Below are positions 5,198 through 62,010 of a stretch of DNA of 64,000 nt, piece after piece; position 1 is the stretch's first letter, and each line of letters opens with the position of its first letter. The notes under the pieces are model-generated. The model worked only from the letters and a program-made list of their open reading frames with translations. It did no database searches and was not told where the DNA came from. The position numbers and the translations under genes are program-made. This stretch comes from a virus, in IMG/VR virus record IMGVR_UViG_3300046463_000164. The stretch is one strand, 5' to 3'.

Positions 5198-5689
5198 TTA
5201 AACCGGTTTAAAACGGTATTTTTCGACTAGGGCGTTAAACTCGCTTTCGCTTTCGATTCGGTTTAGGTCGGATAGGAAAGGGTAATAATCGAACGCGATA
5301 GAGTAACCGGGTTTTACTTCGTCCGTTCTTTCGAAAACCTTTAGCGAGTAACCCGCGTCGAGTTCTAGACTAAAGTAATCTTCGGTAAAATCCGCGATAA
5401 AGCGGATATCGAAACCGGGAATACTTTTAACGCCTAGGCGTTTATCGCCGTTTCCGTTAATCGGGGTAGTTTCTAGCTCGTTTTCCGTAATAATAACGTA
5501 ATAATCGCCTTCGAAATTTTCCGAAAACGCCTTTTCGAATTCCGCGAAAGTCTTAACCCCGTTAAAATCTAGATTATTACGCGGGTTAGCGATAGCGTTA
5601 TTAATCGCGTCTAGCTCGGTTTCGCCCGATCCTAGCGCGTCCCCCGCGATATCGTTTAAACCGGCCGAAAAGTAACGAATCGTTTTCAA
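5198..5689 (-). CDS. hypothetical acidic early protein, 163 aa (TTG start)
   Basis: AGGAG RBS; terminator downstream. Confidence 0.8.
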   Translation of the reverse strand: MKTIRYFSAGLNDIAGDALGSGETELDAINNAIANPRNNLDFNGVKTFAEFEKAFSENFEGDYYVIITENELETTPINGNGDKRLGVKSIPGFDIRFIADFTEDYFSLELDAGYSLKVFERTDEVKPGYSIAFDYYPFLSDLNRIESESEFNALVEKYRFKPV

Positions 5690-5699
5690 AATTCTCTCC

Positions 5700-5813
5700 T
5701 TAGAACGAGAAACGGGAAGCGAGCGTAAGCCCGATAGTTTCCGCGAAAATAAGAACCGCGAGGAACTTAACCGCGAGCGAGTCGCGCGTAAGGTAATACT
5801 TAATCGATTCCAA
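5700..5813 (-). CDS. 37-aa membrane peptide (TTG start, MESIKYYLTRDSLAVKFLAVLIF...)
   Basis: manual translation; same AGGAGAGAATT-TTG leader as next gene. Confidence 0.6.
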   Translation of the reverse strand: MESIKYYLTRDSLAVKFLAVLIFAETIGLTLASRFSF

Positions 5814-5971
5814 AATTCTCTCCTTAAGGACTAGACTCTAGTATAGACGAAAACCCGAGAATTCCAAAATTGTAATTTTCTATCAATTTTGAAGTTCCAA
5901 TAGGAAAATACAATCTTGAAAACGCGTCGGTTTCCCTTATACTAGCCTTACCTTAACGAACTAACCCGGAG

Positions 5972-8811: not shown

Positions 8812-9327
8812 CTATCCTGTAAACAATGATTCAAATAACTCGTCCCTCAATCTAGTCCTCACCCGTCCCATTACTTGACCTAACAGGTTCAGACCCTTCC
8901 AATTCTTCGGGTCCGCTGCTTCAGGACACACGGTAATTCCGACTCCCCAAATGCTGTCGTAGGGAGAAGCCTCAACGAATATCTTATTGTCTGTCTTCAG
9001 CAACTGGTATCTGAGTTCATCGTTCTGCTTGAACTTCAGATAGACCGCATGCTCCATTATCTGTTCCCGGCCTTGCTCCCAGAAGAACTGATTGAAGTTT
9101 GCGATTGACTTCCGTCCATAAGCCTTAGCATCCCTAGGATCAATGAAGTTGGCGATGATATCCATCTCAGCCCTATTCCTATTGAAGTAATAGGCTTTCA
9201 GCGCGATGAACAATCCCTCGCTGTGGTGGAACTCGGTTCCGTCAAACATAATCCTACAAGGATGAAAATTGCTATAGATACTCTCCTTGCTAAAGAACAG
9301 AATCTTGTCATCTATCTCTAGTTGCAA
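8812..9327 (-). CDS. NADAR (YbiA-like) family ADP-ribosyl/N-glycosidase
   Basis: SNF, KF.QN..L...LL.T, VEASPYD.IWG.G and G.NLLG..M..VR motifs. Confidence 0.9.
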   Translation of the reverse strand: MQLEIDDKILFFSKESIYSNFHPCRIMFDGTEFHHSEGLFIALKAYYFNRNRAEMDIIANFIDPRDAKAYGRKSIANFNQFFWEQGREQIMEHAVYLKFKQNDELRYQLLKTDNKIFVEASPYDSIWGVGITVCPEAADPKNWKGLNLLGQVMGRVRTRLRDELFESLFTG

Positions 9328-10172: not shown

Positions 10173-10370
10173 TCATTTCACATACCGCCGCCTGAGCAGT
10201 TCAATCCTACCGTAATGGAGCCTCACACAAGCTGCCCTGAGAGGTTTCAATAATTCTTCCTTCTCGGGTCCATTGGGCAGCTCTAGGATAGGATTGACCT
10301 CTTTTACAATCATACGCAGAATCTCATTGGATTCTTCCCACAATTCATCCCAGGTCATACTAAACCCCAT
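10173..10370 (-). CDS. hypothetical protein
   Basis: ORF track; tightly packed operon. Confidence 0.6.
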   Translation of the reverse strand: MGFSMTWDELWEESNEILRMIVKEVNPILELPNGPEKEELLKPLRAACVRLHYGRIELLRRRYVK

Positions 10371-10557
10371 TTAGACCAGGATTTGGATATTCAAATCCTT
10401 CAGTCTTGTTCATAGCATAGGCAATTTTGTGTGCGTCTAAAGAGTTGGAACTACGACAGACTTCACGACCTTGCCCTTCAAGGGATGTGTCAATGACTAG
10501 ATATTTCATCCCGAATAAAGAACTAATGACCATATACTTCACAGGAACTGCACTCAC
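10360..10557 (-). CDS. hypothetical protein
   Basis: ORF track; overlaps neighbours. Confidence 0.6.
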   Translation of the reverse strand: MSAVPVKYMVISSLFGMKYLVIDTSLEGQGREVCRSSNSLDAHKIAYAMNKTEGFEYPNPGLNGV

Positions 10558-10967
10558 ATTAACCTCGTCTTGATAAAGGTTTCAATAGCAGGAGAAAGCA
10601 GATACTCAGCAAAATGGTCAACAACATAGTTATCAACACGAAGTCCGCTGAGTCGATTTTGGACTCTTGTAATCCCTTCCCCCAAGGACATGAAATAGAC
10701 TTTACATCCATTTTTGAATACCATGTAATCCTTGTAGGTCTCTGACGCTTCCTCTTTCATTCCCAAACCATCAAGGATATGTTCCTTGAAGACTCTAGCA
10801 TTCTCAATCGCCTGAGTGAAGTTAGCCGAGAAGTGAACCAACTTACCATAAGGATGAAAGTCTGTATATTGGGCCAGTTGAACCAATCCAGCTATGGTCC
10901 TACCATCACCGCGACCGAATCGCTTGCCCTCAAGGACATCGTGTAACTTATCAATATCAATATGCAT
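10554..10967 (-). CDS. small protein resembling an isolated, degenerate terminase ATPase domain
   Basis: GRGDGRT, FKNGCKVYF and GLRVDNYVVDH parallel the gp17 motifs ARQMGKT, FDNGSIIF and GRSVDLCYIDE; start could be as far as 10991. Confidence 0.6.
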   Translation of the reverse strand: MHIDIDKLHDVLEGKRFGRGDGRTIAGLVQLAQYTDFHPYGKLVHFSANFTQAIENARVFKEHILDGLGMKEEASETYKDYMVFKNGCKVYFMSLGEGITRVQNRLSGLRVDNYVVDHFAEYLLSPAIETFIKTRLM

Positions 10968-11126
10968 TTGGTATCTCATGTGCTGTGACAACTCTGGCCA
11001 GTTCTTTTATGCTTTCATAATCAACAAATAACTTCTGGCCATTGTACGCAGCAATGCTGAACCCAACCCCTTGGTAATGTTCAGTCTTTTCAATGCCCAC
11101 ATCTTTTAAAATATCTTGATTGACTT

Positions 11127-11396
11127 CTACCATTCAAATAACCAATTTCTGTTTGCTAATTCATAGAGCACGTCTCCATGACACCTTTGAGGACTACACC
11201 AACAGCCTAGACGCTTACCTTCCAACTCAGGCAACGATGCCATTAGATCAGGTTGTTTTACCACCCATTCTCTGAACTTCCTGATCACATCGTCGCGGGT
11301 TCCATCTTTACCGATCTCAAATGGATTACCCCACTTACTTGGCCTGCCGATATAGACGTCATACTCATCGCGTTGACAATGAACAACTGACATCAA
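11127..11396 (-). CDS. DUF4326-domain protein
   Basis: VYIGRPSKWGNPF and LGCWC.P..CHGDVL motifs. Confidence 0.85.
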   Translation of the reverse strand: MMSVVHCQRDEYDVYIGRPSKWGNPFEIGKDGTRDDVIRKFREWVVKQPDLMASLPELEGKRLGCWCSPQRCHGDVLYELANRNWLFEW

Positions 11397-26770: not shown

Positions 26771-26797
26771 TATTTAGCAAGCTATAAATACTAAATA
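26771..26797. promoter_or_regulatory. divergent late promoters (CTAAATA on both strands, TATAAATA on +)
   Basis: T4 late consensus TATAAATA; CTAAATA also at 36247, 42396, 46283, 48816, 51724, 52675 and 52883 before late genes. Confidence 0.75.
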
Positions 26798-26826: not shown

Positions 26827-28599
26827 ATGTCTCAAACCTACACGTCCACCGATTTCGACGATATTCTCAATTCTCTTGTGTTGTTTATGCGCAATCAAGT
26901 GGAATTTCAGGACATGAACTTCGAAGGTAGCGCAATCAGAGAGCTATTAAGAGTATTAGCATTTAACGCACAACAACAAGCATTTCAAAATAATTTTACA
27001 TATAATGAATTACAACTAGATACCGCACAGCTACGTCAAAACGTGGCTAGTATTGCTTCGCGTCTAGGATATACGCCTTCTTCACCTACTGCGGCTAAGT
27101 TGAAGGTAAACATTACTGTTACGCCTAGCGACCCCACAAGCGCTCCGGCAACCCTTGTATTGGATGGCAACAACCAGTTCTATTCTACCAAGGATGGTAA
27201 CACATACATCTTCAGTCCTGATACGGCTTACTCGGCAACTCTAGCTGGCGGCTCGTATCTGTTCACCGGTGTAAACTTGCTACAAGGCGTTTGGACGATC
27301 AACGGCTTTTTGGTGCAGACTCAGTATGGTAACGAAAGCTATGTGATCCCCAACGGCAATATTGATACCAGCACACTTGAAGTCGCCGTTAGAACGTCCG
27401 AAACGTCGGGTGATCAGACATCGTATAAGGTATTCCAAACTGCATACGATCTAGGTCCAACCTCGTTGCTGTATTTCATTCGTGAGAACAGAGACAGCTT
27501 GTATGAAATCAAGTTTGGCGATAACAAGTTTGCTAAGCGTCTGGATTACGGCAACGTCATCACCACTCGCTACTTGGTGACTCAAGGATCGGCAGGTAAC
27601 AATATCTCTGGTTTGTCTACCGTTGCGTCTATCGGCGGATTTTATGATATCGCCATCGAGCAAGTTGATGCTCGCTCTTATGGTGGCGCTGATATTGAAG
27701 ATATCGAATCGATTCGCACTCTAGCCCCAATCGCATTTGCGGCTTCAGGTAATGCAGTTACGCCGGGTGACTATGTTGGTCTAGCCAAGAAGCTATTCCC
27801 GGAAACGTCTGATGCTATCAGCTGGGGTGGTGAGGACAACGTTCCGCCAAAATATGGATATGTTTTCTTGTCCGTTATTCCTAAGAACAGCGACGTGCTA
27901 TCAAGCGATCAGAAAGATGCGCTTGTCGCCATATTAAAGCAATACAATGTTGGTTCGGTGACTCCGTTGATCGTTGATCCGGTATATACCTACATCAATG
28001 TTAACTCCACGGTGAAATATAAATCAACTCAGTTGAATATTTCTACGGATGCTTTGAAGGCGAAGGTCAGCGACTACTGCCGCACATACAGCAAATCTAA
28101 GATGGAGAAATTTGGCGGGTCTCTGGATATGTCCAATCTATCCGACTTCGTGAACACTGTTGATGCGGCTATTACCGGCAACTTCACGCAGGTGTCATAT
28201 GAGAAACGGTTTGTTCCAAGCCTGAACGTCGAAAGCTCTTACACGATTGACTTCTCGCACAAGATCACTCCAGGAACAATTGCTATCACAGGGTTTAAGG
28301 TTGCTGATGCTTATAGCGACGGTTACACTTACAGCATCTATGATGATGGTTTGGGAACACTGAAGCTGAAGAAAACTAGTGTCGCCAATACTCAAATCTT
28401 GGTAGATAACTTGGGTACTGTTGACTATACTCGCGGTTTGATCAGTATCGTTGGATTCAAACCTAACCTTCTCACTGACTTGTATATCACGGTAGCTTGC
28501 TATTGCAACCCTGCTGATGACCAGTCTATGGTTGGGGTTAAGAACTCTATTTTGAAGTTCAACACGATTAACGTTATTCCGTCGGCGGTGCTGAAATGA
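26827..28599 (+). CDS. 6: baseplate wedge protein (gp6)
   Basis: DF..I...L, D.NFEGS, LDTAQLR.NV.S.A..LGY.P, FGD, AVT..DY and WGGE motifs. Confidence 0.9.
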   Translation: MSQTYTSTDFDDILNSLVLFMRNQVEFQDMNFEGSAIRELLRVLAFNAQQQAFQNNFTYNELQLDTAQLRQNVASIASRLGYTPSSPTAAKLKVNITVTPSDPTSAPATLVLDGNNQFYSTKDGNTYIFSPDTAYSATLAGGSYLFTGVNLLQGVWTINGFLVQTQYGNESYVIPNGNIDTSTLEVAVRTSETSGDQTSYKVFQTAYDLGPTSLLYFIRENRDSLYEIKFGDNKFAKRLDYGNVITTRYLVTQGSAGNNISGLSTVASIGGFYDIAIEQVDARSYGGADIEDIESIRTLAPIAFAASGNAVTPGDYVGLAKKLFPETSDAISWGGEDNVPPKYGYVFLSVIPKNSDVLSSDQKDALVAILKQYNVGSVTPLIVDPVYTYINVNSTVKYKSTQLNISTDALKAKVSDYCRTYSKSKMEKFGGSLDMSNLSDFVNTVDAAITGNFTQVSYEKRFVPSLNVESSYTIDFSHKITPGTIAITGFKVADAYSDGYTYSIYDDGLGTLKLKKTSVANTQILVDNLGTVDYTRGLISIVGFKPNLLTDLYITVACYCNPADDQSMVGVKNSILKFNTINVIPSAVLK

Positions 28600-34649: not shown

Positions 34650-35594
34650 ATGTCAACAGCACAAAACCTGGCAAATCTTAGCCAAGTATATACGGCAGGA
34701 CCGTTGAGTCACCGTAATAGATTCATCAACGGCTGTATGAGAGTATCTCAGAGAGGCTCTGTTGCGCTACCTTCTAACGGGATAACATATTCAGCGGCAG
34801 ATAGATGGTATGTTTATACTCAATCGGCAGCAACCAACTCTTTTAATGACTGGGCTTGTCCCGTATCTCAAAACGCATTAAGAGTTCCGGGTGTCGCCGG
34901 GAACGCTAGTTTGGTTATAGGTCAAAAGATTGAGTCTGCTAATATCGCAGACTTAGCTGGGAAGCAAATTACCATCAGCGGCTGGGTGTCAACTCCCGTC
35001 ACAACAGTGCCTACGGTGGTATTATATTACCCAACCAATACCAAAGATGATTTCAGTGCAGTTACAGTTATATCAAGCTCCCCGATATTATCATCAATTA
35101 CTCCGTCAAGTTGGAATTATTTTAGTTTCACAACAACTTTACCAACACAAGTCACCAATGGTCTAAAAGTAGAGTTTGCTTTTGGTGCAATAACTTCAGG
35201 CACTGTGGCTATAGGCGGCATGCAGCTTGAAGCTGGTCCTGTGGCAACTAACTTTGAAATTAGACCCTTTGGATATGAACTAGCATTGTGTCAGCGCTAT
35301 TATCAATCAATATCAACAAGCGGAGCGGCATTCAATGGAGTTACAACTTCGTCTAATACCGCATATTCTTTTGGTGCCACTCTATTCGTTCCCATGAGAA
35401 TAGGTCCAACCTGTAGTCTAACCGGCACTTGGTCTCTAACCGCTCCGGCTGGGCCCTCAGGAACAGTATCTGTTGTCGCCCAGACCAATTGTAACTATTA
35501 TTTGCAGGCTTCAGGCGGAACATATACTGCAGGGCAAACTTGCTATTTCGGATCAACGGTTGGATCTTCGATCAATCTATCTGCAGAGCTATAA
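34650..35594 (+). CDS. tail fibre tip / receptor-binding protein, paralog 3
   Basis: same motif set; ends LSAEL. Confidence 0.75.
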   Translation: MSTAQNLANLSQVYTAGPLSHRNRFINGCMRVSQRGSVALPSNGITYSAADRWYVYTQSAATNSFNDWACPVSQNALRVPGVAGNASLVIGQKIESANIADLAGKQITISGWVSTPVTTVPTVVLYYPTNTKDDFSAVTVISSSPILSSITPSSWNYFSFTTTLPTQVTNGLKVEFAFGAITSGTVAIGGMQLEAGPVATNFEIRPFGYELALCQRYYQSISTSGAAFNGVTTSSNTAYSFGATLFVPMRIGPTCSLTGTWSLTAPAGPSGTVSVVAQTNCNYYLQASGGTYTAGQTCYFGSTVGSSINLSAEL

Positions 35595-35627
35595 ATATAT
35601 TTTGAATATCAATTCAGGAACAAACAA

Positions 35628-36206
35628 ATGACACAACTATATCGTGAATCCAAAAGCCACATTGATGGATCACTAATCGGCATCTTCCGCACTTCTGATA
35701 ATGCGCATATCCCTTTGGATGAGGGCAATACTGACTATGCGGCTTATCTTCAATGGGTAGCTTCGGGGAATACTCCTGACGCAGACCCATTATTTTCATT
35801 GGATGCTATCAAGGATCGTAAATGGGAAGACATTAAGAATCAAAGGGATGCTCGCAAGTCTGGCGGTGTTCTAGTTGGCACGCACTGGATCCATACTGAT
35901 GATTCTAGCCGCATCCAATGGATCGGAATAAAAGATACTGCGCGCGACTTGATCGCCGCTGGCGGTAAGATGACCGATGCTATTCCCATGCAAGGTCAGA
36001 ATCTGATGTGGAAGACAATGTCTGGCGATTTCGTGCTTGTCACGATTCAACTAGCCTTTGATGCGGTGCAAGCAACTAAGGATTTGGATGCCATTCTATT
36101 TGCATCTGCTGAATCTAAGCGAGCAGCTTTGTATGCTTCGACAACTCCAGAAACATTTGACACCACAACAGGTTGGAATAAAACCTACGATGAATCTGTA
36201 GCGTAA
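35628..36206 (+). CDS. tail fibre assembly protein (DUF4376-like)
   Basis: IP.D..N.DY..YL.W...GN; W..IK..RD; D..S; WKT. Confidence 0.7.
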   Translation: MTQLYRESKSHIDGSLIGIFRTSDNAHIPLDEGNTDYAAYLQWVASGNTPDADPLFSLDAIKDRKWEDIKNQRDARKSGGVLVGTHWIHTDDSSRIQWIGIKDTARDLIAAGGKMTDAIPMQGQNLMWKTMSGDFVLVTIQLAFDAVQATKDLDAILFASAESKRAALYASTTPETFDTTTGWNKTYDESVA

Positions 36207-43886: not shown

Positions 43887-44459
43887 ATGACTACAATGTC
43901 CGAAAGGTTAAAAGATACCTTGGGTATGCTGGAATCTCGCGGCGTTGAGATCAAGCGTGCTAATAGTACTGAGTTTGATATTGATGAAGATGGAGTGATC
44001 GGCGGACACCCAGGCAGCGGCGGCGGTGCCCTGATCCCCTTCAAACCAAAAGAAGTGGTTACTTCGGTCCCAGAAACAGAGAATTCTGATATTCGGGACG
44101 ACTATATCACTTCAAGAAATATTACCCATACCCTGATTGATATGGCTGGTAGTGCTCTTGAGGGCGCTCTCAGCGTAGCTATTGAAACTCAACACCCAAA
44201 GGCTTACACGGTGTTTAACGAACTAGCTACCACAATGAGAGGTTTGTCTAAGGATTTGCTTGAGATGCAGAAAATCTACAAGGAAATCTCTGCTGAGAAA
44301 GCGGCTAAAGCGGCTGCTGAGAAGGCGGCTAATGTCACTCAGAACAACGTGACCAACATCACCACTAACGCTTCTCTATCTGAAGTGTTGAAGATGTTGA
44401 AAGAAGGCGGTGGTGATCCGACCCCGATTCAAGCGGTTGATGAGGTGATAGATGTTTGA
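43887..44459 (+). CDS. 16: terminase small subunit (gp16)
   Basis: DDY..SR, HPKAY.V and NNVT motifs; precedes gp17. Confidence 0.8.
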   Translation: MTTMSERLKDTLGMLESRGVEIKRANSTEFDIDEDGVIGGHPGSGGGALIPFKPKEVVTSVPETENSDIRDDYITSRNITHTLIDMAGSALEGALSVAIETQHPKAYTVFNELATTMRGLSKDLLEMQKIYKEISAEKAAKAAAEKAANVTQNNVTNITTNASLSEVLKMLKEGGGDPTPIQAVDEVIDV

Positions 44460-46275
44460 GAAGAAAGCGATTCAGTATGCTCCGTTTAAGGATGGTGCGG
44501 GTCATCCTTTTCCGGTTGAAGACATTATGTTGCCGTATAAAGACACCTACAACGGTAATATCCTGATCAAAAAGGCATTTGTCAAATCTGAGCTTTCAAT
44601 GAATCACATCATTGAAGCGGCAAGGTGTGAGAAAGACCCGATTTACTTCATCGAGAACTATTGTCGTATTGTTTCTCTGGATGACGGTATCATTCCTTTC
44701 AAGCTGTTTGATTATCAGAAGAAGATGATCAAAATGTATGCTGAGAATCGATTCAGCTTGACGCTTACTGCCCGTCAGATGGGTAAGACAGCAGCGATGG
44801 CTGCGTTCATTCTTTGGTTTGCCATCTTCCACCCAACTAAGACCATTGCCGTTCTGGCTAATAAGGGTGAACAGGCTCAGGAAATTATGGACCGTATTCG
44901 TATGGCCTTTGAGTACTTGCCTTTCTTCTTACAGCACGGCGTTAAGGTATACAACAAGCGTCGTATCGAGTTCGACAATGGCTCGATCATTTTCTCAGCA
45001 GCAACTTCTGCTTCTGGTATTCGTGGACGTTCTGTTGACCTTTGTTATATTGACGAAGCAGCGTTCATCGAAAACGACTTGACATTCTACGAATCAACTT
45101 ACCCGGTTATTACGTCTGGTAAGGAGTCGCGCGTTATTATGACGACAACGCCTCGTGGTGCTCGTGGTATGTTTTATATGCTTTGGCGGGATTCTCTCGC
45201 AAATAGAAACTACTACACCAGACTTGAAGTTATCTGGGATGCTCACCCGAAACGCGATGAACGTTGGAAAGAAGAAACCATCGCCAACATTGGATATTCT
45301 CGATTCGCCCAGGAGTTCTCTTGTAAGTTCCAAGGGTCTTCAGGCACTCTTATCCCAACCGAAGTGTTGGAAAGAATGCAGTGGATCAACCCTATTCAAG
45401 AAGATGAGTATTTCAAAGTCTACTTGGAATACCAACACAAGCACGTTGAGATTCCTGATCCTGAGGATGAAACTGGCCAAAGGAAAATTAAGGTTGCAAT
45501 GCCTGTTGATCCAACTAAGGACAAGCCAAGAAAGTATCTTGCTATCTCGGACCCGGCTGGGGGATTAGGACAAGACTATTCAGTATGTACCGTATTGGAC
45601 GTTACTGAATATCCTTACAAAATCGCGGCTAAATATAGGAATAACAATATCAGCCCATTGCTGTTCCCGCATACAATTCTAAATATATGTATGACGTATG
45701 GCAATTGTCCTGTCCTCGTTGAAGCGAATAATGACGTAGGCGGTCAGGTTACATATATCTTGTATTATGAACTTGAATACGAGAATATGATTCTAACGTC
45801 TAACTCAGAACGCGCCATCGGCGGATTGAGAGAAGGCGGTAAAGGCAACGCTGCGCTACCTGGCGTGAAGACAACCAAAAAGGTTAAATCCATTGGATGT
45901 TCAAACCTCAAGACATTGCTTGAAAATGAGTATCTGGTTATTGAGGATCAGGAAACTATTGAAGAACTAGGCACATTCATCGCCAAGGGCGCAAGCTACG
46001 AAGCCGATGAAGAATGTCACGACGACACCGTAATGCCATTGGTGTTGTTTTCTTGGTTCATCAAGACCGAGCTTTTCAACGAATATTGTGGTAGTGATAT
46101 CGGCGCTGATCTCTATAGGAGAAACGTCAATATTGCTATGGAAAGTATTCTACCATTCGGCTACATTGAAATTGCAAATAATGAAGTCGTTGAGTATGCT
46201 GCAAATATTGGCGGTCACGCCATGAACGTAACTGAAAATAATATGATGTCGTTTGAACAATGGATGGCCCTGTAG
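44452..46275 (+). CDS. 17: terminase large subunit (gp17)
   Basis: DPIYFIENY, RQMGKT, YIDEAAF, TTP.G, QEF, DYS and HDD.VM motifs. Confidence 0.95.
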   Translation: MFEKKAIQYAPFKDGAGHPFPVEDIMLPYKDTYNGNILIKKAFVKSELSMNHIIEAARCEKDPIYFIENYCRIVSLDDGIIPFKLFDYQKKMIKMYAENRFSLTLTARQMGKTAAMAAFILWFAIFHPTKTIAVLANKGEQAQEIMDRIRMAFEYLPFFLQHGVKVYNKRRIEFDNGSIIFSAATSASGIRGRSVDLCYIDEAAFIENDLTFYESTYPVITSGKESRVIMTTTPRGARGMFYMLWRDSLANRNYYTRLEVIWDAHPKRDERWKEETIANIGYSRFAQEFSCKFQGSSGTLIPTEVLERMQWINPIQEDEYFKVYLEYQHKHVEIPDPEDETGQRKIKVAMPVDPTKDKPRKYLAISDPAGGLGQDYSVCTVLDVTEYPYKIAAKYRNNNISPLLFPHTILNICMTYGNCPVLVEANNDVGGQVTYILYYELEYENMILTSNSERAIGGLREGGKGNAALPGVKTTKKVKSIGCSNLKTLLENEYLVIEDQETIEELGTFIAKGASYEADEECHDDTVMPLVLFSWFIKTELFNEYCGSDIGADLYRRNVNIAMESILPFGYIEIANNEVVEYAANIGGHAMNVTENNMMSFEQWMAL

Positions 46276-46326
46276 GATACATCTAAATATTACTAGGTTG
46301 AACTTTAACAAGATAAAGGAAGATTT

Positions 46327-48189
46327 ATGCTATTTTTATCGCCTGCTGTCCTTACTTCTGAGGACGATCAAACCCTATACACCACGCAGGTAGCCAATAA
46401 AGTTGGCGCTATTGCTGGTGCCTTCCAATGGGGTCCAGTAGATGCCCCTACACAAATCACAAACGGCGAAAAGGAATTTGTTGCCAAATTCGGCATTCCT
46501 GACAACGTAACGTATCCGTATGTAATGCCTTTGCTAGACTTCTTCTCATACAGCAAGGCTGCATGGGTTGTTCGTCAAGTGGGTGCTGCTGCGCGTAACG
46601 CATTCCCTACAGGTCAAACGGCTGAACTCGTGAAGAACGATGACGCATTTGACGCGGGCAATTTCACAGGTTCTGACTTTATCGCCAAGTATCCTGGAGT
46701 TGCTGGTAACGGTCTTGCTGTCGTAATTATCGACCAAGCCCACTTCGATGGTCATGAACTAGCTAACCAATTCACGTATGTTCCCATCGCTTCTGCCGGT
46801 GAATATGCTATCGCTGTGGTTGATACCACGGGATATTGGACTGGTACGGCTCAAAAGAAACAAAAAGAAAGCCTATATGTAACTGGCTCTGCTACGGCAA
46901 GCGCGACGATCACTGTATTTGGTGTTCCTGTTACAGTTGCTGCTAATGATACGGCTTCCGCAGTTGCTGCTAAGATTGCTGGTACTGCTGGCATCGTTGC
47001 ACTATTCGATTCTGTAGTTGCTAACGGCAGCATCGTTACCTACGTTGAGAAAACTGCTGGCTACTCTACGGTGACTCCTGCTCCTGCGGCTCAAAATGGC
47101 GTGGCTTTCGCTACTACGATTGTTGATCCAGGTTCTCTAGGTGGCGTTCTAGAGAAGTATGAATTGATGACGTCTAATCCTGCTGCTCGCTTTGCCGACG
47201 GCACAACTCAGTACTATGTGGACGCTATCAACAAGGGTTCTAAGTACATCCGAGTTGGCGACAAGTCAATTGCTCTTTCTAACCGCACAGTGGTTCTAGC
47301 TGGTGGTGTGGATGACCAAGTGGTTAACGTCACAGAAGGTTTCCAGCTATTCGCCAACCGTGAAGCATATGATATTCAGTTCCTAATCGCTCCTGCTGTT
47401 AGCGAAGCTGAACAAAAGGCGATCATCGACGTTGCTGAAACTCGTATGGATTGTATGCCTTTCGTGGCTCCGATGTTGGCTGACGTTGTGAATAACCGTG
47501 GTAATGAAGTAGCTTCTGTTCTAGATTGGCGTCAAAACCGTCTAAACAAGGACTCTAATTACTCATTCGCAGTCGACAACTGGGGTTACATGTACGACAA
47601 GTACAACGATGTGTACCGTTGGATTCCGGCTACTGGTGGTACGGCTGGTATCTTCGCGCGCACGTTCGTTAACAACGATCCTTGGATTAGCCCGGCTGGT
47701 CTAACGCGCGGTAAGTATTTGAACTACACTAAGATGGCTTGGTCTGCATCTGAAGATGACCGTAACGCTTTGTACCCATTCGGTATCAACAGCATTGTTA
47801 CGTTCCCGTCTGATGGTATTGTCCTTTACGGCGATAAGACGTTGACTCAACGTCCTTCTGCTTTCAGCCGCGTGAACGTCCGTTGGGCATTCATCGTTGC
47901 TAAGCAGAGTGTTGCTGCTATGGCACGTTACTACTTGTTCGAACTAAACGATGCTAGCACTCGTGCTCAATTCGTGAATGCGGCTACTCCGTTCTTGCGT
48001 AACATGAAGAACCGTCGCGCGTTTGAAGATTTCCGTGTGATTTGTAACGCCGACAATAACGATGCCGATACGCGCTTGCAAAACAAGTTTGTTGTTCAGT
48101 TGCTATTGAAGCCTACTTACTCTATCAACTGGGTGATCTTGAACTTGTCTGCTATCCGTCCGGACGTGGCATTTACAGAAAACTCTTAA
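46327..48189 (+). CDS. 18: tail sheath protein (gp18)
   Basis: SP.V...E.D, F.WGP, YDKYND.YRW.P, W.SPAG..RG and SAF.R.NVR motifs. Confidence 0.95.
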   Translation: MLFLSPAVLTSEDDQTLYTTQVANKVGAIAGAFQWGPVDAPTQITNGEKEFVAKFGIPDNVTYPYVMPLLDFFSYSKAAWVVRQVGAAARNAFPTGQTAELVKNDDAFDAGNFTGSDFIAKYPGVAGNGLAVVIIDQAHFDGHELANQFTYVPIASAGEYAIAVVDTTGYWTGTAQKKQKESLYVTGSATASATITVFGVPVTVAANDTASAVAAKIAGTAGIVALFDSVVANGSIVTYVEKTAGYSTVTPAPAAQNGVAFATTIVDPGSLGGVLEKYELMTSNPAARFADGTTQYYVDAINKGSKYIRVGDKSIALSNRTVVLAGGVDDQVVNVTEGFQLFANREAYDIQFLIAPAVSEAEQKAIIDVAETRMDCMPFVAPMLADVVNNRGNEVASVLDWRQNRLNKDSNYSFAVDNWGYMYDKYNDVYRWIPATGGTAGIFARTFVNNDPWISPAGLTRGKYLNYTKMAWSASEDDRNALYPFGINSIVTFPSDGIVLYGDKTLTQRPSAFSRVNVRWAFIVAKQSVAAMARYYLFELNDASTRAQFVNAATPFLRNMKNRRAFEDFRVICNADNNDADTRLQNKFVVQLLLKPTYSINWVILNLSAIRPDVAFTENS

Positions 48190-55473: not shown

Positions 55474-56913
55474 TTACGAGCGGGCGCGTGCGCGGACTTC
55501 TTCAAACTTCGGGACATAGTCAACAAATCCGTCGCTGAAATAACGCCTCCAACCCTTCTGCGATTGGAACACCGTGTAGTCCGATGTCACAATCAAATCG
55601 TCGCCATCGTACTGCGTATGAGCCAGACCAGTCAACGACTTCTTGCTTGCGTCTGTCTTAGGTTCCTTCAGAAGATTGACCCAAACTCCACCGCCCAAAC
55701 GAGCCGTTGCCTTCATCGAGAAGCTGAACTCATCGCGGCCAGGACCATGAGTCAAACCGCCGCCCATACCAAACGTCAGATTATCCAGCGAGTACCCAGA
55801 CTTGACCAGATTGTCCAGAATCTTCACCAGAGAATCTTGGTTGATGCCGTCACCCTGGATAACGCGAACTGAAGGATGCAGCGTTTTGAATCCCATGGCG
55901 TTATCAGTAGAACCAAACTTCTCATCAAGCCATTCGATCACTTGAATAGGCTTGGTCATAGGATCGCCCGAATCAGGCCGTGCAACGAGAACGCCGCCAG
56001 ATGCAACAATACGTTCCTTCAGACGTTCTCCCAGATATTCCTTGACAAAACGTTCATCATCATACGTATCAATCACAACCGATTGCAACGGAATGCCGAT
56101 GCCGCGTTGAGTACGCTTAACCGCTTCTTCCAGACGAGTAACCGACATCTCAGCTGCACCAAAGTCATCCTTGGTCTTAGCATCCGAGTGCGAGCACATT
56201 ACGCTATGCTCCGTCGCGTCAACCGAACTGAGATAGTTCTTGCTGGTGCGATACAGCTTCTTGATATAGCGACCGGCGCTGAGACAGTCAGAACCGCTGA
56301 ACAACGTGCCGTGAGCGATTGCTGCCAAAATCGCGCCATCTTCGCCATCTGCACCGCGATCACCAAAGTTATGCAGCTTGTATTCCAGCAGTTCCTTAGT
56401 AGAACCGGTGAGTGCAGTAACTTCCTCAAGCTCTTTGTAGCAGTAGCGGCTGATCGATGCAACTGTGGTCATCTTCCACATGATACGCTGAACAACCGTT
56501 TCAACATAGGAAACCAACCAGAAGAAGCGCGGGTCAGTATTCACAATACCCAGAATCGGAGTGTTGGGTTTGACAACCGTACCTTCCTCAACTCCGTAGA
56601 CATCCAGAGGCAGACGACCGTCAAACTCACGGACGATGGTTTCCCAATCTTTACGGTTGAACTCATAACCGTAGGCATTGACTTCCAGTTCGGCTTCGTC
56701 AATCATTTCTTGAGTAATACGAACAGCAGCCAGTTCAGCCGCCACAAACGTTGCGCCGGTGGCAACAATTTCCTTCGTATATGCAGAACCCTTGCGAGGC
56801 ACCACCGTCGAGTAGATGAATTGAGTATCATCCGGATACTCAGCGAAGTGATGCAGCTTGTAGCTATCGCACAGAAGAATGAAGTTTGCCGCAAGAATCG
56901 AATTCAAAGACAT
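55474..56913 (-). CDS. nadV: nicotinamide phosphoribosyltransferase
   Basis: DSYK..H, LHNFG.RG, A.EHS, RPDSGDP, IQGDGI and FGMGGGL motifs. Confidence 0.93.
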   Translation of the reverse strand: MSLNSILAANFILLCDSYKLHHFAEYPDDTQFIYSTVVPRKGSAYTKEIVATGATFVAAELAAVRITQEMIDEAELEVNAYGYEFNRKDWETIVREFDGRLPLDVYGVEEGTVVKPNTPILGIVNTDPRFFWLVSYVETVVQRIMWKMTTVASISRYCYKELEEVTALTGSTKELLEYKLHNFGDRGADGEDGAILAAIAHGTLFSGSDCLSAGRYIKKLYRTSKNYLSSVDATEHSVMCSHSDAKTKDDFGAAEMSVTRLEEAVKRTQRGIGIPLQSVVIDTYDDERFVKEYLGERLKERIVASGGVLVARPDSGDPMTKPIQVIEWLDEKFGSTDNAMGFKTLHPSVRVIQGDGINQDSLVKILDNLVKSGYSLDNLTFGMGGGLTHGPGRDEFSFSMKATARLGGGVWVNLLKEPKTDASKKSLTGLAHTQYDGDDLIVTSDYTVFQSQKGWRRYFSDGFVDYVPKFEEVRARARS

Positions 56914-56924
56914 TATTATTTTCC

Positions 56925-58010
56925 TTACATACCCAAAAGAAGATTATCCAACTGTTGCAGTTCCTTCTCAACCTTCACGAAGTGCTTCACCATGAAGATG
57001 TGATCATCATACGTTTCAGCGGCGATATCATCCAACCGTTGTTGGTGAACCCATTCATATCCAGCCGCGTCATCAGCCGGATAGATTTCAGGGAAGTCAT
57101 CAAACATATCAGTGATATCGAAATACACTCCCAACGTACTACGGGGAATACCCATTGCCCGATGCGGGTCATCGAACAGCTTAGTTGCCTTGATACATTT
57201 CTCCAAGGCATCAGGCGGAATATTCGGGCGGCATTCCTCATAAAATTCACGAATCGCAGCTTGTTGGAAAGTCTCATCGCGGTTCTTAAACCCGCCAGGA
57301 GTAGCCTTGCAGCCTTTACCCGGAACGCGAGCGCGGATGATGAACAAGAAGTAATCGCGCCAACGAACAATCGCATCCGCACAGCTGAAGTTCAACGTTT
57401 CCTTATACGGATATCCAGAGAAGCGCAAAGCCTCATCTTGATAATACTTCCACTCTTGCTGTAGGTCCATATTGAAAGGCAACGAATTCAGATATTGAAT
57501 AGTCGCGTAGGGAACTTCTTTGTGCATCTTATTCAGCAGCAAATCTGTCTGATACCCATCAAACCAAGCCTTACGCAGCGTCGTTGCGTCCATGCTACTC
57601 TTGGCTGGTGTAATGCCTTGTTTCCATTCCGGAAACATCTTCAGGTAGAACGTCGATTCATCCTTGTCGCTACCATACAGCGTAATCGTATCTTCCCAAC
57701 GGGCTTGCGAATTCACATTCATGCGAACCATTTCTGCCCAAGCATCGTTGTCAAGAGGATCATCAGGCAGCGGCTTAAACACAAATCTAACTGATGGCGG
57801 AATCTCATAATCCGCCCAGATGTTCTCAGAAATCAGTTCTTCCCGCTGCTTTACCGTGAGGGGATTCTTGATCGACACGCGACGATTGCTAGAGCCTAGC
57901 AGGATGATCACCACATCGTTTTCCAGCGCTGCACGACGCACATGGTCGTGATGTTCATTATGATAGCCTTCAAAACGACCAATCAATACACCAATACGCT
58001 TACTCATCAA
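56925..58010 (-). CDS. bifunctional NMN adenylyltransferase / Nudix hydrolase (NadM/NatV-like)
   Basis: IGRF...H..H, KNP, KD.ST.YL..FP.W; Nudix PGG....ET...A.RE..EE. Confidence 0.9.
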   Translation of the reverse strand: MMSKRIGVLIGRFEGYHNEHHDHVRRAALENDVVIILLGSSNRRVSIKNPLTVKQREELISENIWADYEIPPSVRFVFKPLPDDPLDNDAWAEMVRMNVNSQARWEDTITLYGSDKDESTFYLKMFPEWKQGITPAKSSMDATTLRKAWFDGYQTDLLLNKMHKEVPYATIQYLNSLPFNMDLQQEWKYYQDEALRFSGYPYKETLNFSCADAIVRWRDYFLFIIRARVPGKGCKATPGGFKNRDETFQQAAIREFYEECRPNIPPDALEKCIKATKLFDDPHRAMGIPRSTLGVYFDITDMFDDFPEIYPADDAAGYEWVHQQRLDDIAAETYDDHIFMVKHFVKVEKELQQLDNLLLGM

Positions 58011-61194: not shown

Positions 61195-62010
61195 TTACTT
61201 AGTCGCTGCGCAAACAGCCTTTTTATCGGCGGTGAACTTTGCGATATCATCAGGCCACACCGACTTTGCGGCTACAGCCTTATTGCCAGGAACCGGGAAA
61301 GTAATTCCAGTATCCTTTTCAATCTTTGATTCCGGTACCAGATACGGCGTCATATCGTTTTTGATAGACAAAGCCTGATGAGGGAACTCAAAATCCATTT
61401 CTTCCTTAGTCGCTGTATCAATCACGATTTTATAGAAAGCGTGCGGCACAACAACCTTATTAGGACCAATTGTCTTGTCTTGCGGACCATAGATCGGACC
61501 AGTATAGACTTGCATCGTATGCTGACGATTAAACGCCCAACCACGCACATTTGTCTCTAGCTCTTCCCAGATACCCGCATTAAACGGATGGATCTGCGGT
61601 GCCATATTAGACAATAGAAAACTTTCCTTGTCCACATTCAAATCCCAAGCCATATCAGCATTATTAGCCAAATGGCCCTTATCATATCCGCTGTTAGTGT
61701 AGTCTTTCAACTCAGCGCGCTTTCCAACAGGAAGCAAAGGATCAGGAATGAAACTATCTTGACGCGGAACACAACCTTCTGAATGCTTCGGAGTCAACGT
61801 ATATGCAACCCAAACCGGAATCTTGGCAACATCGTCATGCTTCAAAACATATGCTTTATGGCACAACTGAGTACCGACTACCTTATCTGTAGGTAGACCC
61901 AACGGGGCTTCTACCGAAGCGATGGCGCAGGGCGTAGAGGCTGCATAAGATGCCGGAGCGCTCACTAGAGTCGATACGGCGATTACTAATGCTGCTAGAA
62001 ATTTCTTCAT
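61195..62010 (-). CDS. DNA/RNA non-specific endonuclease (NucA/EndoG family) with signal peptide
   Basis: MKKFLAALVIAV..SYA signal; P.WVAY, GYDKGHL, SNM.PQ...N.G.W..LE and VP..FYK motifs. Confidence 0.92.
   Translation of the reverse strand: MKKFLAALVIAVSTLVSAPASYAASTPCAIASVEAPLGLPTDKVVGTQLCHKAYVLKHDDVAKIPVWVAYTLTPKHSEGCVPRQDSFIPDPLLPVGKRAELKDYTNSGYDKGHLANNADMAWDLNVDKESFLLSNMAPQIHPFNAGIWEELETNVRGWAFNRQHTMQVYTGPIYGPQDKTIGPNKVVVPHAFYKIVIDTATKEEMDFEFPHQALSIKNDMTPYLVPESKIEKDTGITFPVPGNKAVAAKSVWPDDIAKFTADKKAVCAATK

What the first reader, a model, noticed from the sequence alone, without database searches (positions are those of the whole stretch)
10554..10967. Stand-alone degenerate terminase ATPase domain: possible decoy for terminase-sensing immunity
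Seen: motif order and spacing match this phage's gp17 N-domain: GRGDGRT vs ARQMGKT, SANFTQA vs ANKGEQA, FKNGCKVYF vs FDNGSIIF, and GLRVDNYVVDH vs GRSVDLCYIDE. The Walker A Lys is replaced by Arg and the catalytic Glu by His, there is no nuclease domain, and the gene lies among early accessory genes. Established: several Avs/STAND NTPases are activated by large terminase. Inference: a catalytically dead mimic that occupies such sensors, or a regulator of packaging.
Basis: partly seen in the sequence, partly recalled or inferred. Interest (0 to 1): 0.7.

Follow-up and report, generated by a model that had tools for sequence, protein, structure and literature searches.

The report
Dead mini-copy of terminase ATPase
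An uncultured phage carries a small, well-conserved early gene that copies only the middle of its DNA-packaging motor's ATP-binding domain and has lost the residues needed to burn ATP. Similar look-alikes are known in other phages (T4 vs.8), and whether this one fools bacterial terminase sensors is untested.

Summary

It belongs to a family of about 38 cluster representatives, all 111-169 aa. No member has the catalytic Glu. The Walker A Lys position varies (Q/R/K/H/N). The P-loop Arg, Gly, Thr and the Walker B Asp are nearly invariant. The strand before the P-loop and everything after Walker B are missing. dN/dS is 0.08, so the gene is under selection. It is translationally coupled to a conserved small downstream gene.

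The decoy idea remains untested. The nearest published analogues, T4 vs.8 and Ksap2, activate Avs2 rather than block it. No natural terminase-mimic Avs inhibitor turned up in my searches. This family is closer to TerL than to vs.8 and has no member in the cultured phages searched.

Other agents of this scan have noted stand-alone terminase-ATPase paralogues on other DNA, in at least 20 genomes. Verdict: a real, new, degenerate variant of a recently recognised class. Its function is open.

The parts
10554..10967 (-). Gene for the 137-aa truncated, degenerate terminase-ATPase paralogue ('mini-TerL', P0002)
   Evidence: ORF and homologue starts. Homology to TerL. Fold. dN/dS 0.078 against the L017 orthologue.
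10896..10916 (-). Degenerate P-loop G18-R-G-D-G-R-T24. R19, G22 and T24 are conserved. The Walker A Lys position (R23) is variable.
   Evidence: Alignment to TerL ARQMGKT and to T4 gp17 SRQLGKT. Column counts: R19 33/33, G22 33/33, T24 31/33. Position 23 is Q11/R10/K5/H3/N2/L1/A1.
10614..10631 (-). Walker-B-like strand N113-Y-V-V-D117-H118. The Asp is kept and the catalytic Glu is replaced by His.
   Evidence: Aligns to TerL LCYIDE. D117 is 32/33. Position 118 is His in 16/33 and never Glu.
10926..10961 (-). Family-specific N-terminal helix motif I-D-I-D-K-L-H-D-V-L-E-G. D4 and H9 are nearly invariant.
   Evidence: Alignment A2. Counts: D4 31/33, H9 30/33. Helix 5-12 in both models. The motif is not seen in the TerL or vs.8 alignments.
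10360..10557 (-). Conserved small downstream gene (65 aa here, GTG start). It overlaps the mini-TerL stop by 4 nt (GTGA), with GAGG upstream. Function unknown.
   Evidence: Sequence. Orthologues lie directly downstream, with 4-8 nt overlap, in L017, L015 and L009, at 48-71% identity. No Pfam, PHROG or PDB relative.
10957..11133 (-). Small upstream gene (58 aa). Its last 11 nt overlap the mini-TerL start. Conserved only within the closest clade.
   Evidence: 32-44% identity in L017 and L015. Not related to the ~200-aa upstream gene of the second clade.
11127..11396 (-). DUF4326 gene, a conserved neighbour two genes upstream
   Evidence: Pfam E 1.6e-30. Same position in L001-L004, L016, L017 and L018.
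8812..9327 (-). NADAR-domain gene in the same early block (ADP-ribose-linked accessory gene)
   Evidence: Pfam E 1e-37. NADAR and Macro genes also lie beside the homologue in L007.
44452..46275 (+). The phage's genuine large terminase (gp17-like, 607 aa) with intact Walker A (K112), Walker B (D201-E202) and nuclease domain. This is the parent fold of the mini protein.
   Evidence: Pfam Terminase_6N E 7.3e-27 and Terminase_6C. PHROG terminase families. 55% identity to Ralstonia phage RSP15 TerL. Invariant columns.
43887..44459 (+). Small terminase subunit gene upstream of terL
   Evidence: Pfam DNA_Packaging E 1.1e-9. Same TerS-TerL-sheath order as RSP15.

Best explanation
What it is (about 0.9 sure). 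It is a selected, stand-alone pseudo-ATPase of 137 residues, derived from the T4-type large-terminase ATPase domain. It keeps only the stretch from the P-loop helix to the Walker B strand. It lacks the strand before the P-loop. It also lacks everything after Walker B: the coupling motif, further core strands, the lid subdomain and the nuclease. It has neither the Walker A lysine nor the catalytic glutamate. It therefore cannot hydrolyse ATP by the canonical ASCE mechanism, and it lacks the nuclease domain and the later motor elements needed to translocate or cut DNA.

It sits in a block of small early-type accessory genes. It is translationally coupled to a conserved small downstream gene.

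How it most likely works (about 0.3 sure; inference). It acts by binding, not catalysis. It presents a terminase-like surface, including the preserved remnant of the nucleotide pocket (R19, G22, T24, D117). The likely target is a host factor that recognises the terminase ATPase domain, such as an Avs1-3-type or Upx-type sensor. Occupying or diverting that sensor before the real terminase appears would be an anti-defence role.

Shown: identity, truncation, degeneracy, purifying selection, family distribution and gene context. Inferred: the binding mode, the partner and the direction of the effect (block rather than trigger).
For: Homology to TerL: hhalign 97.1%, E 4.9e-11. The family HMM hits the window's own TerL at E 3.6e-9. 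It also hits the TerLs of RSP15, Cygsa01 and T4. Pfam Terminase_6N matches 15/33 members.

Degeneracy across the family: Glu is never present at position 118. The Lys position is Q/R/K/H/N/L/A. R19, G22, T24 and D117 are 31-33 of 33.

Selection: dN/dS 0.078 at dS about 1.

Stand-alone status: all 38 representatives found by an exhaustive HMMER search are 111-169 aa.

Context: the block contains small genes with NADAR and DUF4326. Homologues sit next to Macro and NADAR or near a T7 Gp5.9-like gene. No T4-type late promoter lies nearby.

Precedent: T4 vs.8, a stand-alone terminase-ATPase-like protein, is placed in the EcAvs2 terminase pocket by an AlphaFold 3 model. [quoted passage not shown] It heads the T4 vs.3-vs.8 gene block used in PMC13243611, in which vs.3 encodes the anti-Thoeris sponge TadIV-1. 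Avs2 and Upx need only the terminase ATPase domain.
Against: No binding or phenotype data exist for this protein. The host is unknown and the phage is uncultured. The tested analogues (vs.8, Ksap1, Ksap2) activate Avs2; none has been shown to block it.

The mini protein lacks about a third of the ATPase core. It probably cannot hold the terminase-bound ATP that EcAvs2 reads through its bridging ATP. It also lacks the nuclease domain that Avs3 binds.

A second clade of the family sits directly upstream of uvsX, among nucleotide-metabolism and replication genes. That placement does not suggest immunity.

The strongly conserved N-terminal motif and the coupled downstream gene have no counterpart in TerL. 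They hint at a function of their own.
Confidence: 0.3

Rival explanations
1. Exapted pseudo-ATPase scaffold with a job unrelated to terminase recognition. Together with the translationally coupled small downstream protein, or with other partners in the second clade, it binds a phosphate-bearing ligand, nucleic acid or an early phage/host protein. Only the stable half-domain of TerL is reused.
For: R19, G22, T24 and D117 are kept while the catalytic residues drift. This pattern is typical of pseudo-enzymes that still bind a ligand. The N-terminal motif is family-specific. The coupled downstream gene is conserved in four lineages and is as conserved as the mini protein itself. Second-clade members lie between dNMP-kinase/dUTPase genes and uvsX in three lineages.
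Against: Truncated TerL-ATPase paralogues seem to have arisen repeatedly in unrelated phages (vs.8, and small BFVD proteins of the same fold). This argues that likeness to TerL itself is what is selected. No ligand or partner is identified. The downstream protein has no detectable relatives.
Confidence: 0.25
2. Packaging modulator or poison subunit. The fragment docks onto the large terminase, either the phage's own (timing control) or that of a co-infecting phage or satellite (exclusion). It then disturbs assembly or firing of the pentameric motor.
For: It is homologous to the part of TerL that carries the P-loop and the region preceding Walker B. In other terminases that region carries the trans-acting arginine (my knowledge of P74-26 R139). 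Basic residues are common at -10 (R in 17/33) and -7 (R/K in 26/33) from the Walker B Asp.
Against: It sits in an early-type gene block far from the packaging genes, on the opposite strand. It lacks the N-terminal region and subdomain II that in T4 gp17 carry the TerS and portal contacts (my knowledge; not tested). The -10 arginine is Ser in the window protein and variable in its clade.
Confidence: 0.2
3. A decaying remnant of a duplicated terminase gene, or a mis-called ORF, with no function.
For: The catalytic residues are lost and the domain is truncated.
Against: dN/dS is 0.078. The length stays at about 135 aa over members down to 22-30% identity. Invariant residues persist. Micro-synteny and start/stop overlaps are conserved. 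The fold prediction is confident.
Confidence: 0.03

Closest known systems
Phage T4 vs.8 (NP_049732, phrog_1488), a stand-alone terminase-ATPase-like early protein reported as a non-terminase activator of EcAvs2 (Evans et al. 2026, PMC13601566)
   Same: Both are small stand-alone paralogues of the T4-type terminase ATPase domain with no nuclease. Both are encoded among early accessory genes far from terL. Both have an Arg-containing P-loop and an RG-x-[RK] motif before Walker B. Profile-profile relation: 89% probability, E 2.2e-6, over the P-loop-to-Walker-B stretch.
   Different: vs.8 is 173-196 aa. It keeps the strand before the P-loop, an invariant GRQSGK[TS], Walker B IIDEP with Glu, and a C-terminal strand. 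This family is about 135 aa, lacks those strands, and has no Lys/Glu pair. HMM cross-scores are near noise (median 6 bits and below). The same family profile scores TerL at a median of 26 bits. It is therefore not a vs.8 family member and is probably a separate offshoot of TerL. vs.8 has experimental Avs2 data; this protein has none.
N-terminal ATPase domain of T4-type large terminases (T4 gp17, PDB 2O0H/3CPE; the window's own TerL; Pfam Terminase_6N)
   Different: This protein has no strand before the P-loop. It has no Walker A Lys and no catalytic Glu. It has no coupling (C) motif, no lid subdomain and no nuclease domain. It is 137 aa against 607 aa and lies in an early-type gene block.
Ksap2 (Bas60_220, phrog_17458), a small phage protein with a weak terminase-ATPase-like fold that binds and activates KpAvs2 (Bechon et al. 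2024, PMC11564622)
   Same: Both are small accessory phage proteins with a central sheet resembling the terminase ATPase core. [quoted passage not shown]
Anti-Avs proteins named in the EVADES survey (ORF55 DNA ligase and ORF83 DprA-like of phage DruSM1; bioRxiv 10.1101/2025.06.06.658234)
   Same: They would share the biological target class (Avs) if the decoy idea is right.
   Different: Those proteins are not terminase mimics. A terminase look-alike that blocks a sensor did not turn up in the papers I could search.

Membership tests
Large terminase subunit TerL (T4-type, Terminase_6N + Terminase_6C) | Terminase-type ASCE ATPase fold and sequence homology | tested here: met
Large terminase subunit TerL (T4-type, Terminase_6N + Terminase_6C) | Walker A G-K-[TS] lysine | tested here: not met
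   R23 aligns with K112 of the window TerL and K166 of T4 gp17. Across the family the position is Q11/R10/K5/H3/N2/L1/A1.
Large terminase subunit TerL (T4-type, Terminase_6N + Terminase_6C) | Walker B Asp followed by the catalytic Glu | tested here: not met
   The Asp is kept (32/33). The next residue is His here and is never Glu in 33 members.
Large terminase subunit TerL (T4-type, Terminase_6N + Terminase_6C) | Coupling (C) motif strand, lid subdomain and RNase-H-like nuclease domain | tested here: not met
   The protein ends 20 residues after the Walker B Asp. The model shows only two helices after that strand. No Terminase_6C hit. All family members are 111-169 aa.
T4 vs.8 family (phrog_1488) | Sequence membership (profile match) | tested here: not met
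   No PHROG hit for the window protein. The vs.8 HMM scores minis at 7 bits or less. The mini HMM scores vs.8 proteins at a median of 6 bits. The vs.8 profile finds nothing but TerL in the window. Only a distant profile-profile link exists (89%).
T4 vs.8 family (phrog_1488) | Intact GRQSGK[TS] Walker A and IIDEP Walker B; length of about 175-195 aa with N-terminal PYLSLMNAF and C-terminal FFVIG strand | tested here: not met
   Compare the vs.8 alignment with the mini alignment.
T4 vs.8 family (phrog_1488) | Activates EcAvs2 on co-expression | not testable with these tools
   This is an experimental property reported in PMC13601566.
Ksap2 family (phrog_17458) | Sequence membership | tested here: not met
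   hhalign probability 0.1%.
Anti-defence decoy / sensor blocker (functional class) | Binds a terminase-sensing receptor and prevents its activation by terminase | not testable with these tools
   No Avs or Upx sequence of the unknown host is at hand. This needs co-expression and plaque assays.
Active ASCE P-loop NTPase | Complete 5-1-4-3-2 core sheet with P-loop strand, Lys and catalytic Glu | tested here: not met
   Neither model has a strand before the P-loop or a core strand after Walker B. Lys and Glu are absent.

The most novel reading that the evidence does not exclude
The family is a natural molecular mimic that blocks a bacterial pattern-recognition receptor. It would be a non-hydrolysing half-copy of the terminase ATPase domain that fills the terminase pocket of Avs1-3-type or Upx-type sensors without allowing oligomerisation. 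Loss of the ATP-holding Lys/Glu pair and of the threaded core strands would be the adaptation that turns a trigger (like vs.8) into an inhibitor.
Probability: 0.12. Interest if true: 0.8.

Novelty: new variant of a known kind. Interest (0 to 1): 0.42.

Why it matters
Bacterial NLR-like sensors (Avs1-3) and Upx detect phages by the shape of the terminase ATPase domain. It is an open question why phages keep small terminase look-alikes such as T4 vs.8 and Ksap2, which can set these sensors off.

This family is a cleaner test case. It is unmistakably terminase-derived and under strong purifying selection, yet it is stripped of catalysis and of a third of the fold. If it binds such sensors without firing them, it would be the first natural ligand-mimic inhibitor of a bacterial NLR-like receptor that I am aware of. 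It would also show which parts of the terminase fold are needed for binding and which for activation. If it does not, it is still a defined example of a pseudo-ATPase built from a viral motor. It has a conserved partner gene and can be tested in ordinary E. coli co-expression assays.

Tried and rejected
1. Complex prediction of the mini protein with the conserved downstream 65-aa protein returned 'no answer' (score 0.00). This is no evidence either way.

2. I considered that the downstream gene encodes the missing next piece of the ATPase domain. Its V-I-D-T-S-x-E-G stretch looks like the TerL V-I-M-T-S-T-P-N-G coupling strand, which would make this a split vs.8-like gene. hhalign found nothing against TerL or vs.8 (probability 0.3% and 0.2%). 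I dropped the idea.

3. I considered that the short upstream gene matches the C-terminus of the ~200-aa upstream gene of the second clade. This was not supported (hhalign 0.55%).

4. I looked for cultured-phage homologues. tblastn of P0002 and P0014 against 50,697 phage records found no match. megablast of the locus found no match. The family profile against the whole records of RSP15, Cygsa01, T4 and Bas60 hit only the TerL genes.

5. The IMG/VR scan with the close-family alignment found no confirmed locus. The wide alignment had no stretch conserved enough to scan with.

6. No whole genome is held for the window, and the metagenome contigs could not be searched whole. I could therefore not check for a second paralogue beyond the 64-kb window. 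Within the window there is none.

7. PADLOC gave only noise. PHROGs gave no family for the window protein.

8. Direct BLASTP of the mini protein against the window TerL is not significant on its own (E 0.38). Significance comes only from profiles.

I therefore have no language-model neighbours and no expression evidence.

Full report
THE GENE. On the - strand an ORF runs from ATG 10967 to the stop at 10554-10556 (137 aa, P0002). A longer TTG-initiated frame reaches 10991.

The ATG lies 11 nt inside the end of a 58-aa upstream ORF (10957-11133). The stop overlaps the GTG start of a 65-aa downstream ORF (10360-10557) in the sequence ATGTGAGTG, with GAGG a few bases upstream. The three genes are therefore tightly packed and probably translationally coupled.

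THE PHAGE. The window carries a TerS-TerL-tail-sheath block (43887-48189), baseplate genes, gp46-like and RNA-ligase genes, and many small - strand ORFs. Its TerL is 55% identical to that of Ralstonia phage RSP15 (Ackermannviridae) and 51% to that of Pseudomonas phage Cygsa01. Nothing closer exists among 50,697 phage records. Identical copies of the mini gene lie on metagenome contigs of up to 174 kb. It is an uncultured member of the wider T4/ViI-like myophages, and its host is unknown.

IS THE RESEMBLANCE TO TERMINASE REAL? Yes.
- Alone, the protein gives only a sub-threshold Pfam Terminase_6N hit (E 0.004, 17.3 bits against a cut-off of 22) and a non-significant BLASTP to the window TerL.
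- An exhaustive HMMER search of 1.84 billion representatives found a family of 38 clusters, every one 111-169 aa long.
- Of 33 aligned members, 15 hit Terminase_6N, best E 1.7e-8.
- The family profile finds the window's own TerL at E 3.6e-9 among 683 ORFs.
- It also finds the TerL genes, and nothing else, in the full records of RSP15, Cygsa01 and T4.
- Profile-profile comparison with 20 T4-type TerLs gives 97.1% probability, E 4.9e-11, over 97 columns.
- Against PDB sequences the best hit is T4 gp17 residues 160-258.

FOLD. AlphaFold2 with five sequences gave pLDDT 83. With 33 sequences it gave 91.3, with all five models at 88-91 and identical secondary structure.

The model has five strands (42-47, 74-77, 81-84, 89-94, 113-116). 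It has no strand between the N-terminal helix and the P-loop, and only two helices after the Walker B strand. Against T4 gp17 it spans residues 126-280, so it ends before the coupling motif (residues 285-287 by my knowledge of gp17). It is thus the P-loop-to-Walker-B half of the domain, not a whole ASCE domain.

DEGENERACY. Counts over the 33 aligned members:
- P-loop Arg (R19, equivalent to T4 R162): 33/33.
- G22: 33/33.
- T24: 31 Thr and 2 Ser.
- Walker B Asp (D117): 32/33.
- Walker A Lys position: Q11, R10, K5, H3, N2, L1, A1.
- Catalytic Glu position: His in 16 and never Glu.

Canonical ATP hydrolysis is therefore excluded for the whole family. The retained Arg/Gly/Thr/Asp set would suit a site that still binds a phosphate ligand, or a surface that must go on resembling the terminase active site. 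A family-specific N-terminal helix motif, (I/L)-D-(I/V)-(D/E)-(R/K)-L-H-x-V-x-E-G, is the most conserved stretch (D4 31/33, H9 30/33). It has no obvious counterpart in the TerL or vs.8 alignments.

SELECTION. Between the window gene and its 84%-identical orthologue in L017, dS is about 1 and dN/dS is 0.078. This is a functional protein-coding gene, not a relic.

CONTEXT. In the closest clade (window, L017/L018, L015/L016) the order is conserved: DUF4326, small upstream gene, mini-TerL, small downstream gene. The overlaps are 4-11 nt.

The downstream protein (core P-V-K-Y-M-V...L-F-G-M-K-Y-x-V-x-D-T-S-x-E-G-x-G-R) also follows the mini gene in L009. There the mini proteins are only 37% identical but the downstream proteins are 48% identical. 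It has no relatives in Pfam, PHROGs or PDB sequences.

A second clade (L005/L006, L010/L011, L012) places the mini gene after a conserved ~200-aa protein and directly before uvsX. That sits in a dNMP-kinase, dUTPase, uvsX, DnaB-like helicase block.

Elsewhere the neighbours include NADAR and DUF4326 (window), Macro, NADAR and NAD kinase (L007), and a T7 Gp5.9-like gene (L009). No T4-type late promoter lies near the gene. The setting is that of early/middle accessory genes, with several of the anti-defence type. This is only weak evidence by association.

WHAT IS KNOWN. Two papers bear directly on this.

Bechon et al. 2024 (PMC11564622) showed that Ksap2 is the trigger that KpAvs2 binds during Bas60 infection. 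Ksap2 is a 111-aa protein of phage Bas60 with a weak structural likeness to a terminase ATPase domain.

Evans et al. 2026 (PMC13601566) made several relevant findings:
- EcAvs2 and Upx need only the terminase ATPase domain.
- EcAvs2 reads the terminase-bound ATP through a bridging ATP.
- AlphaFold 3 models have Upx threading several core strands of an unfolded ATPase domain.
- T4 vs.8 is 'an uncharacterized ATPase-like protein' homologous to the T4 terminase ATPase with intact Walker motifs. It is toxic with EcAvs2 and is modelled in the terminase pocket.
- The authors call the function of these activators open and suggest they may be anti-defence proteins.

In PMC13243611 the T4 vs.3-vs.8 genes were expressed from the vs.8 promoter, and vs.3 encodes the anti-Thoeris sponge TadIV-1. 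The anti-Avs proteins named in the EVADES survey are a ligase and a DprA-like protein, not mimics.

RELATION TO vs.8 AND Ksap2. I fetched both.

Ksap2 shows no relation to this family.

vs.8 (phrog_1488) and its homologues are 173-196 aa. They have an invariant G-G-R-Q-S-G-K-[TS], a Walker B I-I-D-E-P and a C-terminal strand. The two families are linked only at profile-profile level (89%, E 2.2e-6). In HMM cross-scoring, the mini profile gives TerL a median of 26 bits but vs.8 a median of 6 bits.

The family is therefore nearer to TerL than to vs.8 and is best seen as a separate, more reduced offshoot. The BFVD fold search also brings up several unnamed small viral proteins (141-222 aa) with the same fold. 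The window TerL touches several small unknown-function PHROGs. Other agents of this scan have reported stand-alone terminase-ATPase paralogues in at least 20 other genomes (unchecked notes). The class is recurrent. This family is a new and unusually degenerate form of it.

MECHANISM. What can be said firmly is negative. The protein is not a motor, not a nuclease and not an ATPase by the canonical mechanism.

Repeated origin of such fragments from TerL, rather than from other P-loop proteins, suggests that likeness to TerL is the selected property. Because the gene sits in an early-type block, far from and opposite to the packaging genes, I rank a host terminase-recognising factor as the likeliest partner (about 0.3). 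Next come an unrelated pseudo-enzyme role with the coupled small protein (about 0.25) and interference with a terminase motor (about 0.2).

The main objection to the decoy reading is that every tested analogue fires Avs2 instead of blocking it. Whether the missing Lys/Glu pair and the missing core strands convert a trigger into a blocker is exactly what an experiment must decide.

The one complex prediction I could run (mini with the downstream protein) gave no answer. Binding to TerL or to a sensor was not tested.

VERDICT. It is a new variant of a recently recognised kind, of moderate interest.

Noticed in passing
window 55474-56913 (-) and 56925-58010 (-): Adjacent genes for a nicotinamide phosphoribosyltransferase (NAPRTase and NAMPT_N domains) and a 361-aa NUDIX-containing protein. 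This looks like a phage NAD+ salvage pair of the kind used against NAD-depleting defences.
   Followed up: no
window 10360-10557 (-); L017:2670-2984, L015:5411-5638, L009:799-1083: A small protein family (conserved core of about 60 aa) always lies directly downstream of the mini-TerL gene and overlaps it. It has no relatives in Pfam, PHROGs or PDB sequences.
   Followed up: partly
L005:6001-6417, L010:5001-5426, L012:234-674: A second clade of the mini-TerL family sits immediately upstream of uvsX and after a conserved ~200-aa protein. It lies in a dNMP-kinase, dUTPase, uvsX, DnaB-like helicase block in three lineages. The L010 contig carries a TerL whose ATPase region is 91% identical to the window's.
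   Followed up: partly
window 8812-9327 (-), 11127-11396 (-); L007:3355-3795 and 5487-5954: ADP-ribose-linked accessory genes recur near mini-TerL genes: NADAR and DUF4326 in the window; NADAR, Macro and NAD kinase in L007. In T4 the vs.8 region likewise holds tk.4 (A1pp motif) and nudE.
   Followed up: no
window 26783-26790 and 35590-35597 (+): Only three TATAAATA (T4-type late promoter) matches occur in 64 kb, no more than chance. Two of them sit directly before structural genes (gp6-like at 26827, and the ORF at 35628).
   Followed up: no
window 61195-62010 (-): A 271-aa non-specific DNA/RNA endonuclease (Endonuclease_NS, E 2.5e-46).
   Followed up: no
family member P0014 (L007:6001-6441): This member is recorded on contigs of 0.2-1 Mb in seven blocks of the collection. 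These could be jumbo phages or integrated elements.
   Followed up: no
BFVD hits to model mc5c3db2ef143: The best viral fold matches are unnamed small proteins (A0A2I7RKU4 162 aa, A0A514AB09 222 aa, H9YTE3 177 aa, A0A0S1WEV6 141 aa), ahead of or among full terminases. These are further candidate stand-alone terminase-ATPase-like proteins.
   Followed up: no
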